Positions 14,153 through 14,330 of a stretch of DNA of 64,000 nt are shown here, in pieces. The DNA is taken from NCBI GenBank assembly GCA_048941015.1, contig JBHLNZ010000007.1, positions 1 to 64,000 on the forward strand, read 5' to 3'. Within the stretch, counting starts at the first letter, position 1. Each line of letters begins with the position of its first letter. A model generated the notes under the pieces. That model was not told the origin of the DNA. It did no database searches and saw only the letters and a program-made list of their open reading frames with translations. This DNA comes from Promethearchaeota archaeon. GTDB taxonomy: Archaea; Asgardarchaeota; Lokiarchaeia; Sigyniarchaeales; SOKP01. Both the position numbers and the translations under genes were made by a program.

Positions 14153-14330
14153 GGGCCATTTGCTTAGCTTGGTTATCATGGTTTTCTTCAGCTTGGCCAA
14201 CAAGCGCAGGTCTTATAATTGACCAATGGACAAACAATAAACATTTAGTGTCCATGTTAGTAAAAACCTGAGATCCGGGGTTCAAATTACTTAAACAAAA
14301 CGTTTGTGTATGAAATTCCCCGATGGCCCA
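14153..14330 (+). tRNA. tRNA-Ile(UAU) with three introns (21/22: 14176-14201; anticodon loop: about 14219-14265; 59/60: 14287-14316)
   Basis: Acceptor GGGCCAT/ATGGCCC with A73, D-stem GCTT/AAGC, anticodon stem CAGGT/ACCTG with spliced loop CTTATAA, short variable loop AGATC, T-stem CGGGG/CCCCG; BHB central helices TGGT/GCCA, TTAT/GTAA, TTCA/TGAA. Confidence 0.88.

What the first reader, a model, noticed from the sequence alone, without database searches (positions are those of the whole stretch)
14153..14330. Eukaryote-style tRNA-Ile with UAU anticodon
Seen: after intron removal the anticodon loop is CU-UAU-AA, with an Ile-like GGGCC acceptor, A73 and a short variable loop. The result is the same whether the intron is placed at 37/38 or 38/39. 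Known: most archaea read AUA with a CAU tRNA modified to agmatidine by TiaS. UAU is a rare archaeal exception (Nanoarchaeum, Korarchaeum) but is standard in eukaryotes, where yeast tRNA-Ile(UAU) is pseudouridylated in an intron-dependent way. Inference: this lineage may decode its many ATA codons the eukaryotic way, and needs a means to avoid misreading AUG.
Basis: partly seen in the sequence, partly recalled or inferred. Interest (0 to 1): 0.72.

Follow-up and report, generated by a model that had tools for sequence, protein, structure and literature searches.

The report
Three-intron Asgard tRNA-Ile(UAU), no TiaS
This is a real isoleucine tRNA gene, cut by three introns and carrying the anticodon UAU, and it is the only evident reader of the very common AUA codon in a Loki-type Asgard archaeon that lacks the usual archaeal enzyme TiaS. 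The strategy is known from a few other archaea, and this scan has already met it in many Asgard genomes.

Summary
Window 14153-14330 (+) is a genuine tRNA gene that ARAGORN and Rfam miss because it has three bulge-helix-bulge introns of 26, 47 and 30 nt, in the D loop, the anticodon loop and the T loop. Every motif-consistent splicing gives a 72-75-nt cloverleaf with the loop CUUAUAA, that is tRNA-Ile(UAU).

The gene is conserved with T34 in 76 distinct orthologues, with compensatory changes in all four stems. The genome also holds one tRNA-Ile(GAU) and two CAU tRNAs (initiator and elongator Met). No third CAU tRNA and no TiaS were found.

In a 301-genome sample of the phylum, TiaS is missing from nine families (0/111 genomes) and present in 171/190 of the rest. 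I read UAU genes in eight of those nine families and in no TiaS-positive family.

ATA makes up 3.6% of codons and interchanges with ATT/ATC, not ATG.

The "eukaryotic" modification route is untested, and no Pus1 orthologue exists. The kind is known (Nanoarchaeum, Korarchaeum, ARMAN). I found no paper reporting it for Asgard archaea, but this scan has noted it in hundreds of other genomes.

The anticodon-loop intron is always kept and carries a conserved ACA motif that is unexplained.

The parts
14120..14127 (+). TATA-like box TTTATAAT, 26-33 nt upstream of the mature 5' end (candidate archaeal promoter)
   Evidence: Read directly from the sequence. Inference only; AT-rich flanks make such matches common.
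14153..14175 (+). Exon 1: acceptor 5' strand GGGCCAU, U8, U9, D-stem 5' strand GCUU, D loop AGCUUGGUUA
   Evidence: BHB solver; orthologue with an intron-free D arm
14176..14201 (+). Intron 1, 26 nt, at D-loop/D-stem junction 21/22; central helix UGGU:GCCA, bulges UA|U and AC|A
   Evidence: A D-arm intron is present in 57 of 76 orthologues.
14202..14218 (+). Exon 2: D-stem 3' strand AAGC, G26, anticodon-stem 5' strand CAGGU, loop C32 U33 U34 A35 U36 A37 A38
   Evidence: The 14-nt arm motif GCGCNGGTCTTATA occurs in 63/68 genomes of the window's own family and 5/7 of its sister family.
14214..14216 (+). Anticodon TAT (UAU in the RNA)
   Evidence: ARAGORN on the spliced product; the T at position 34 is kept in 76 distinct orthologues
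14219..14265 (+). Intron 2, 47 nt, in the anticodon loop (38/39 by the BHB rule; 37/38 gives the same product). Central helix U33-U36:GUAA pairs the whole anticodon. The inner hairpin AUGGACA/UGUCCAU has a loop starting AACA (ACA at 14230-14232 and 14234-14236).
   Evidence: Central helix 100% paired and 5 compensatory pairs in the inner hairpin. Intron present in 76/76 orthologues. ACA motif in 72 of 76 at fixed intron nt 15-18 (73 anywhere in the window scored).
14266..14286 (+). Exon 3: anticodon-stem 3' strand ACCUG, variable loop AGAUC, T-stem 5' strand CGGGG, T loop U54-A59
14287..14316 (+). Intron 3, 30 nt, in the T loop at 59/60; central helix UUCA:UGAA, bulges AA|U and AU|U
   Evidence: T-loop introns of about 30 nt recur in many tRNA genes of this genome. 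Present in 20 of 76 orthologues.
14317..14330 (+). Exon 4: U60, T-stem 3' strand CCCCG, acceptor 3' strand AUGGCCC, discriminator A73 (no encoded CCA)
14336..14340 (+). Run of five T shortly after the 3' end (candidate termination signal)
   Evidence: Read directly from the sequence; inference

Best explanation
The locus encodes the precursor of tRNA-Ile(UAU), the tRNA that reads the isoleucine codon AUA in this Loki-type (Promethearchaeia) Asgard archaeon.

Shown from sequence and comparison:
- A 178-nt gene whose three BHB introns, once removed, leave a 75-nt class-I cloverleaf with loop CUUAUAA and A73.
- The gene is single-copy and conserved across the order and beyond.
- The genome has the splicing endonuclease EndA and the ligase RtcB.
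- It has tRNA-Ile(GAU) for AUU/AUC and only two CAU tRNAs (initiator and elongator Met).
- It has no TiaS, so the standard archaeal agmatidine route cannot operate.
- ATA is abundant and evolves as an Ile codon.

Inferred:
- The transcript is cut at all three BHB motifs by EndA, joined by RtcB, given CCA and charged by IleRS.
- U34 pairs with the A of AUA.
- Some feature, most likely a modification of U34, limits reading of AUG.

Which modification this is, and whether it is installed on the intron-containing precursor, is not known.
For: The gene is real and reads as UAU:
- spliced product, all solutions UAU.
- precursor fold, z = -3.85.
- 18 same-genus orthologues, all with CTTATAA.
- in the sister family the acceptor stem has 5 of 7 pairs with compensatory changes, the T stem 2, the anticodon stem 2 and the D stem 1, with 100% pairing in the acceptor, anticodon and T stems and the central helix (92.9% in the D stem).
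- 76 distinct genes.

Distribution of the gene:
- The covariance model of the arm plus intron hits 77/81 family genomes.
- The arm motif occurs in 63/68 and 5/7 genomes of the two Loki families.
- I read UAU genes in families f1, f2, f3, f4, f6, f7, f16, f17, f20 and f25.

TiaS:
- PF08489 gives no hit above cut-off in the own genome. The one weak hit is an aconitase.
- A full-length Asgard TiaS finds nothing.
- PF22641 is found in 0/61 family genomes, with 4/4 archaeal controls positive.
- Phylum sample: 0/111 in nine families against 171/190 elsewhere.
- The three arm-motif matches in TiaS-positive families are not tRNA genes.

tRNA set: Ile GAU x1, Ile UAU x1, CAU x2 and no third CAU.

Codon use: ATA is 35.5 per 1000 codons and 33% of Ile codons. 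ATA sites in SepSecS align to ATT/ATC/ATA in 84% and to ATG in 0.4% of cases across 48 orthologues.

Splicing enzymes: EndA and RtcB are present.

Precedent: ARMAN, Nanoarchaeum and Korarchaeum use tRNA-Ile(UAU) without TiaS (PMC3239211, PMC6000648, PMC8450103).
Against: There is no RNA evidence.

The genome is 95% complete in 144 contigs. My strict-BHB scan recovers only about four in five of the class-I tRNAs known from the other scans. A third CAU tRNA could therefore be missed or unassembled. Val-GAC, Arg-CCG, Leu-CAG and Gly-GCC were also not found.

Assigning the C35 CAU tRNA to elongator Met rests on resemblance only (acceptor GCCGGUG, two CAU genes in total).

Charging by IleRS is inferred.
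Confidence: 0.88

Rival explanations
1. Same tRNA, but the always-retained anticodon-loop intron is a cis-acting modification signal. In the precursor the anticodon is either paired with the intron (central BHB helix) or displayed in a small fold-back hairpin (G29-C32 paired with intron GACC) followed by ACA. This would recruit a pseudouridine synthase (Cbf5, Pus10 or TruA-type) to convert U34 and/or U36 before splicing. It would be the archaeal counterpart of the intron-dependent pseudouridines at positions 34 and 36 of eukaryotic tRNA-Ile(UAU).
For: - The anticodon-loop intron is present in 76/76 orthologues, while D, T and variable-loop introns occur in 57, 20 and 8.
- ACA sits at a fixed intron position in 72 of 76 distinct introns. 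In shuffles, 40% have an ACA anywhere in the 17-nt window.
- The same ACA, starting 16 nt 3' of U36, can be read in families f7, f16, f17, f20 and f25.
- The fold-back helix GGUC:GACC is paired in 71 of 72 cells in the genus.
- Cbf5 and Pus10 are encoded.
- Eukaryotic precedent: yeast Pus1 acts only on the intron-containing precursor, and Cyanidioschyzon merolae tRNA-Ile(UAU) also has D, anticodon and T introns (PMC9602550).
Against: - There is no biochemical or RNA evidence.
- The fold-back helix shows only wobble-compatible changes and no double compensatory change in the genus.
- It has an internal C-A mismatch wherever position 31 is C (f7, f17, f20, f25). Only f16 shows the compensating G.
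- It is 2-4 bp in the sister family.
- ACA lies inside the apical loop of the intron hairpin, not 3' of a lower stem as in H/ACA guides.
- In the window's family the spacing differs (ACA at +14 and +18 from U36, against +16 elsewhere).
- Canonical introns are common in other tRNAs of this genome, so retention alone is weak evidence.
- Cbf5 and Pus10 are universal in archaea.
- Other agents of this scan proposed the same idea, but that is not independent evidence.
Confidence: 0.15
2. A tRNA-Ile2(CAU) does exist but was missed or is unassembled, and an unrecognised enzyme unrelated to TiaS modifies its C34. The UAU tRNA would then be a minor or redundant AUA reader.
For: The genome is 95% complete. 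My scans miss some tRNAs, and at least four expected anticodons were not found.
Against: - No third CAU anticodon arm with tRNA-like flanks was found in the whole genome.
- TiaS is absent from 0/111 genomes of nine families, including many 98-100% complete ones, while the UAU gene is present in nearly all.
- This complementary pattern is what replacement predicts.
Confidence: 0.04
3. The locus is a decayed or unexpressed tRNA pseudogene, or T14214 is an assembly error for C.
For: None beyond the lack of RNA data.
Against: - The same T occurs in 76 distinct gene sequences from independent assemblies.
- All stems stay intact, with compensatory changes.
- All three introns keep cleavable BHB motifs.
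- The gene is single-copy, and no other AUA reader was found.
Confidence: 0.01

Closest known systems
tRNA-Ile(UAU) ('tRNA-Ile3') of ARMAN-2/-4/-5, Nanoarchaeum equitans and Candidatus Korarchaeum cryptofilum (PMC3239211, PMC6000648, PMC8450103)
   Same: An archaeal UAU-anticodon Ile tRNA in genomes that lack TiaS and tRNA-Ile2(CAU). The ARMAN-2 and Korarchaeum genes also carry an intron next to the anticodon.
   Different: Here the host is an Asgard archaeon and the gene has three introns. The trait covers whole families and classes (at least ten families read here) rather than single reduced genomes. The anticodon intron carries sequence motifs conserved across classes. None of these archaeal tRNAs has had its U34 chemistry determined, as far as I could find.
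Eukaryotic cytosolic tRNA-Ile(UAU), e.g. yeast, and Cyanidioschyzon merolae with D-, anticodon- and T-arm introns (PMC9602550, PMC11912914)
   Same: UAU anticodon for AUA; an obligatory intron beside the anticodon that pairs with it in the precursor. C. merolae even has the same three-arm intron layout.
   Different: Eukaryotes make pseudouridine at positions 34 and 36 with Pus1. This genome has no Pus1 orthologue, only a TruA-type enzyme. Eukaryotes also read AUA with an inosine-34 (IAU) tRNA, and no A34 tRNA-Ile was found here. Homology of the two systems is not shown, and most other Asgard families keep TiaS.
Archaeal tRNA-Ile2(CAU) with agmatidine made by TiaS
   Same: Same job (reading AUA as Ile, not AUG) and the same kind of class-I tRNA with A73.
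   Different: This is the system that is missing here: there is no TiaS domain and no third CAU tRNA. It is present in 171/190 sampled genomes of other Asgard families.
Mycoplasma mobile tRNA-Ile(UAU) (PMC3575796)
   Same: A prokaryote lacking the C34-modifying enzyme reads AUA with a UAU tRNA.
   Different: It is bacterial, intron-free and replaces TilS rather than TiaS. From my own knowledge (not checked here), its U34 is unmodified and its IleRS is adapted.
[quoted passage not shown]
   Same: Multiple BHB introns per gene, many missed by standard annotators, with D-arm introns prominent.
   Different: That study does not mention Ile, UAU, TiaS or agmatidine.

Membership tests
tRNA (class I cloverleaf) | 7-bp acceptor stem, D arm with G18G19, 5-bp anticodon stem with 7-nt loop (U33, purine 37), short variable loop, T arm with UUC..A loop, discriminator base | tested here: met
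   The spliced 75-mer scores 25 on my cloverleaf measure (21 stem pairs plus four conserved-base checks: GG in the D loop, U8, UC and A in the T loop). ARAGORN calls it tRNA-Ile(tat).
tRNA (class I cloverleaf) | Match to the Rfam tRNA covariance model RF00005 | tested here: not met
   The unspliced gene gives no hit, as expected with three introns. The spliced sequence has no reference and could not be submitted to that tool.
tRNA (class I cloverleaf) | Stems maintained by compensatory change among orthologues | tested here: met
   Acceptor 5/7, T stem 2/5, anticodon stem 2/5 and D stem 1/4 pairs with double changes; acceptor, anticodon and T stems 100% paired, D stem 92.9%.
TiaS-independent AUA decoding by tRNA-Ile(UAU) (ARMAN / Nanoarchaeum / Korarchaeum type) | Anticodon UAU in an Ile-type tRNA | tested here: met
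   conserved in 76 orthologues.
TiaS-independent AUA decoding by tRNA-Ile(UAU) (ARMAN / Nanoarchaeum / Korarchaeum type) | No TiaS in the genome | tested here: met
   0/68 (PF08489) and 0/60 (PF22641) in the family; archaeal controls positive.
TiaS-independent AUA decoding by tRNA-Ile(UAU) (ARMAN / Nanoarchaeum / Korarchaeum type) | No tRNA-Ile2(CAU) | tested here: met
   Only initiator and elongator-type CAU genes were found by four scans. Caveats: the genome is 95% complete and scan sensitivity is about 80%.
TiaS-independent AUA decoding by tRNA-Ile(UAU) (ARMAN / Nanoarchaeum / Korarchaeum type) | AUA codons mean isoleucine | tested here: met
   ATA sites align with ATT/ATC/ATA in 84% and with ATG in 0.4% of cases in 48 SepSecS orthologues.
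TiaS-independent AUA decoding by tRNA-Ile(UAU) (ARMAN / Nanoarchaeum / Korarchaeum type) | Charged by IleRS and reads AUA but not AUG on the ribosome | not testable with these tools
   Needs aminoacylation and ribosome-binding assays.
Archaeal bulge-helix-bulge (BHB) tRNA introns | 4-bp central helix flanked by two 3-nt bulges, with cuts after the second bulge base restoring the mature tRNA | tested here: met
   All three introns: UGGU:GCCA, UUAU:GUAA and UUCA:UGAA. The outer helices are short or imperfect for introns 1 and 2 (relaxed type).
Archaeal bulge-helix-bulge (BHB) tRNA introns | Splicing endonuclease and RtcB ligase encoded | tested here: met
   EndA at contig C37 (70.6 bits) and RtcB at C58 (561.8 bits).
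Archaeal bulge-helix-bulge (BHB) tRNA introns | Spliced RNA observed | not testable with these tools
Eukaryote-type tRNA-Ile(UAU) with Pus1-made pseudouridine at positions 34 and 36 | Pus1 orthologue present | tested here: not met
   There is one TruA-family gene. It is above the TIGR00071 TruA cut-off and closer to TruA/Pus3 than to Pus1 structures.
Eukaryote-type tRNA-Ile(UAU) with Pus1-made pseudouridine at positions 34 and 36 | Intron beside the anticodon that pairs with it in the precursor | tested here: met
   U33-U36 pair with intron GUAR in 18/18 sequences. In the sister family C32-A35 pair with UARG in 7/7.
Eukaryote-type tRNA-Ile(UAU) with Pus1-made pseudouridine at positions 34 and 36 | Pseudouridine at positions 34 and 36 | not testable with these tools
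   Needs modification mapping.

The most novel reading that the evidence does not exclude
The anticodon-loop intron of Asgard tRNA-Ile(UAU) is not just tolerated. It would be a built-in signal (anticodon-intron pairing or a fold-back hairpin, plus a conserved ACA) that directs a resident pseudouridine synthase to U34/U36 of the precursor. If so, intron-dependent anticodon editing for AUA/AUG discrimination, so far a eukaryotic hallmark, already exists in Asgard archaea.
Probability: 0.15. Interest if true: 0.85.

Novelty: new member of a known kind. Interest (0 to 1): 0.5.

Why it matters
AUA/AUG discrimination is one of the few places where the three domains of life use different chemistry: lysidine, agmatidine, and inosine or pseudouridine.

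This gene and its relatives show that a large part of the Asgard archaea has dropped the archaeal agmatidine system. That part includes the window's order, one further family of its class and several other classes. The order also contains closed 4.4- and 6.0-Mb genomes whose sizes match the cultured Loki strains, although their identity was not verified here. These lineages instead read a very frequent codon with a UAU tRNA that always carries an intron at the anticodon, as in eukaryotes.

Because cultured Lokiarchaeia exist, an old open question becomes directly testable: how does an archaeal U34 tRNA avoid reading AUG? That was impractical in Nanoarchaeum, Korarchaeum or ARMAN.

The finding also matters for annotation. 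Standard finders miss the gene, so these genomes look as if they have no AUA decoder. It does not by itself link the trait to eukaryotic ancestry, since most other Asgard families keep TiaS.

Tried and rejected
- **ARAGORN and Rfam on the raw DNA.** ARAGORN (with and without its intron option) and Rfam (gathering and E-value modes) found no hit at the locus. This is explained by the three introns.
- **First manual splice.** It gave a 77-nt product with a 12-nt D loop. I replaced it with the BHB-consistent 75-nt product. The anticodon is unchanged.
- **Alternative anticodon UAA.** This arises if the loop is cut after U33-A35. I rejected it because it has no BHB support and the class-I shape does not fit tRNA-Leu.
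- **BLAST with the spliced sequence against sister families.** It found only other tRNAs: initiator Met, Ala and Lys.
- **Loose patterns AGCGN5CTTATAA and GCGN5CTTATAA.** They matched at or below control level. Only one real gene (G093) came out of them.
- **Chance matches.** Arm-motif matches in G053, G168, G182, G046 and G261 are coding sequence. Family f5 (one genome) therefore remains undecided.
- **Weak TiaS_FLD hit.** The 14.4-bit hit is an aconitase.
- **First genome-wide BHB scan.** It missed the focal gene because of a recursion cap. I rewrote and reran it.
- **Search for a second TruA/Pus1 paralogue.** Only one gene was found.
- **Not attempted.** Naming the anonymous families, building a species tree for TiaS loss, and an IleRS comparison.

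Full report
**What is at the locus.** The window is contig C119:1-64000 of a 3.59-Mb, 29.4% G+C, 95%-complete genome in 144 contigs. Close relatives carry public titles such as "Promethearchaeota/Promethearchaeia archaeon", for example Loki_b32 and CP070831.1. It is therefore a Loki-type Asgard archaeon.

ARAGORN and Rfam find only tRNA-Sec in the window and nothing at 14153-14330. Removing three AT-rich inserts gives a sequence that ARAGORN calls tRNA-Ile(tat).

I wrote an exhaustive solver that accepts only introns bounded by a 4-bp helix with two 3-nt bulges, cut after the second bulge base, and then demands a class-I cloverleaf. It returned twelve solutions for this locus; the eight best-scoring, which I read, all have the loop CUUAUAA.

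The best solution is a 75-nt tRNA:
- exons 14153-14175, 14202-14218, 14266-14286 and 14317-14330
- introns of 26 nt (position 21/22), 47 nt (38/39, equivalent here to 37/38) and 30 nt (59/60).

Its D loop, AGCUUGGUUA, is the one seen in an orthologue whose D arm has no intron (G024). It therefore replaces my first manual splice. The whole 178-nt precursor folds with acceptor, anticodon and T stems intact and each intron as an extended hairpin (-56.5 kcal/mol, z = -3.85, 0/200 shuffles). A TATA-like box lies 26-33 nt upstream and a T5 run follows the 3' end. These two signals are inference only.

**Comparative support.** BLAST found the gene in 18 of 24 same-genus genomes. All have GCGCAGGTCTTATAA and an anticodon-loop intron, while D-, variable- and T-loop introns come and go.

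In the 18-sequence alignment of the anticodon arm plus intron:
- the central helix U33-U36:GUAR is 100% paired
- the inner intron hairpin has five pairs with compensatory changes
- the base just before position 39 varies (A, C or U) while A37-A38 never do. This places the cut at 38/39 in this family.

A covariance model of this region hits 77 of 81 genomes of the family and, more weakly, the sister family. In seven sister-family genes, which have a single canonical 37/38 intron, the cloverleaf is strongly supported. The acceptor stem has 5 of 7 pairs with double changes, the T stem 2, the anticodon stem 2 and the D stem 1. The acceptor, anticodon and T stems and the central helix C32-A35:UARG are paired in every sequence, and the D stem in 92.9%.

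Altogether I recovered 76 distinct gene sequences, many lying beside SepSecS in named public records. Every one has the anticodon-loop intron. 57 have a D intron, 20 a T intron and 8 a variable-loop intron.

**Is it the AUA reader?**
- *tRNA set.* Four scans were run: ARAGORN with introns, Rfam tRNA, an anticodon-arm scan, and a genome-wide strict-BHB scan. Together they give one tRNA-Ile(GAU) on contig C64, one tRNA-Ile(UAU), and two CAU tRNAs. One CAU tRNA is an initiator (AGCGGGG... on C10) and one is an elongator type (GCCGGUG... on C35). There is no third CAU gene. The strict scan returned no non-tRNA hit at its threshold (one class-II Leu gene was forced into the class-I frame) but recovers only about 80% of the class-I tRNAs known from the other scans, so this is good but not exhaustive evidence.
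- *TiaS.* It is not found. PF08489 gives only a 14.4-bit hit that is an aconitase. A complete Asgard TiaS protein with all four of its domains (catalytic TCKD, FLD, OB fold, zinc ribbon) finds nothing at E <= 1. The catalytic-domain family PF22641 is absent from 61/61 genomes of the family, while all four archaeal controls ring.
- *Codon use.* ATA is the ninth most frequent codon: 35.5 per 1000, a third of Ile codons, and twice as common as ATG.
- *Codon meaning.* In SepSecS, ATA sites align with ATT/ATC/ATA in 84% and with ATG in 0.4% of cases across 48 orthologues. ATA is therefore Ile.
- *Splicing enzymes.* EndA and RtcB are encoded.

**Distribution in the phylum.** In an even sample of 301 Asgard genomes, TiaS_FLD is found in 171. 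It is absent from all 111 sampled genomes of nine families, here called f1, f2, f5, f6, f7, f16, f17, f20 and f25. It is present in 171 of 190 genomes of the others.

Two 14-nt arm motifs, GCGCNGGTCTTATA and GCGCNGGCCTTATA, match almost only in the TiaS-less families. I read UAU genes in:
- f1, f2 and f3
- f4 and f6
- f25
- f7 and f16
- f17 and f20.

Families f3 and f4 were not part of the TiaS sample. The only matches in TiaS-positive families, and the one in f5, are coding sequence. The trait is therefore old and clade-wide, not private to this genome.

Two single-contig genomes of the sister family, of 4.4 and 6.0 Mb, have the gene. Their sizes match the two cultured Lokiarchaeia, and the 1,418,269-bp genome G041 matches the closed Odinarchaeum chromosome. 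I could not verify any of these identities.

**How AUG is avoided.** This is unknown. The genome has one TruA-family gene, which is TruA-like rather than Pus1-like. The literal eukaryotic mechanism therefore has no gene-level support. Cbf5 and Pus10 are present, but they are universal in archaea.

One feature is striking. The intron keeps an ACA at a fixed place: intron nt 15-18 in 72 of 76 distinct introns. In shuffles, 40% have an ACA anywhere in the 17-nt window. The same ACA, starting 16 nt 3' of U36, is visible in families f7, f16, f17, f20 and f25. The elongator-Met intron of this genome lacks it.

An alternative fold-back helix, G29-C32 with intron GACC, is paired in 71/72 cells in the genus. 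However:
- it shows no double compensatory change
- it is mismatched in four families where position 31 is C, with compensation only in f16
- it is short in the sister family.

I therefore treat an intron-directed modification as a possibility of about 15%, not a finding. Several other agents of this scan proposed the same Cbf5/ACA idea. That is not independent evidence.

**Literature.**
- A survey of 167 archaeal genomes found tRNA-Ile(UAU) only in Korarchaeum and Nanoarchaeum (PMC6000648).
- tRNAscan-SE 2.0 calls this tRNA 'tRNA-Ile3' (PMC8450103).
- ARMAN-2/-4/-5 were reported to have tRNA-Ile(UAU) while lacking both tRNA-Ile(CAU) and TiaS (PMC3239211).
- Yeast Pus1 makes pseudouridine at 34 and 36 only on the intron-containing precursor. 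C. merolae tRNA-Ile(UAU) has D, anticodon and T introns (PMC9602550).
- A 2026 preprint documents heavily interrupted Asgard tRNA genes but does not mention Ile, UAU or TiaS.
- No held paper combines TiaS with Lokiarchaeota.
- Within this scan the same finding has been noted on other DNA many times: 438 notes in at least 389 genomes.

**Verdict.** The decoding inference is well supported by genomic and comparative evidence. The 'eukaryote-style' modification and any ancestry link are not shown. It is a new member of a known kind, of moderate interest. The conserved anticodon intron is the part worth an experiment.

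Noticed in passing
window 15202-16682 (-): The tRNA-Sec gene (16590-16682, Rfam 61.4 bits) lies immediately beside the SepSecS gene (15202-16575, Pfam E = 1e-110). The tRNA-Ile(UAU) gene sits about 870 nt from SepSecS on its other side. This neighbourhood is kept in many relatives.
   Followed up: partly
window 5668-5795 (-): Another interrupted tRNA gene, tRNA-Ser(GGA), with an anticodon-loop intron (about 17 nt) and a T-loop intron (about 28 nt). ARAGORN and Rfam both miss it.
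   Followed up: partly
window 315-841: An earlier first-reader note (e1-5794469) reports a BHB-type intron inside the uL11 mRNA in this window. I did not examine it.
   Followed up: no
same contig outside the window, G000:C119:70888-70989 (-): The tRNA-Gln(UUG) gene reads CCUUGAA in its anticodon loop, that is C rather than the near-universal U at position 33. Its sister tRNA-Gln(CUG) has the normal CUCUGAA.
   Followed up: no
G000:C35:13352-13484 (+); G000:C113:2294-2454 (+); loci L080-L082, L197: Unusual T loops. The elongator-type CAU tRNA has CUCAUAU. tRNA-Tyr and several tRNA-Ile(UAU) orthologues have A at position 54 (AUCGAAG / AUCAAAG) instead of U54.
   Followed up: no
locus L163 (LJUH01000039.1): A contig deposited as 'Chlamydiae bacterium SM23_39' encodes a SepSecS 74% identical to this Asgard protein. 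It is probably a mis-binned Asgard contig. The closest relatives are variously labelled Hodarchaeota, Hermodarchaeota or Promethearchaeota in public records.
   Followed up: no
window 14230-14236 and orthologous introns: ACA is conserved at a fixed position in the apical loop of the anticodon-loop intron (GGACAnACA in this family, GCAUACA in the sister family). The same is seen in five more distant families. No explanation is established.
   Followed up: partly
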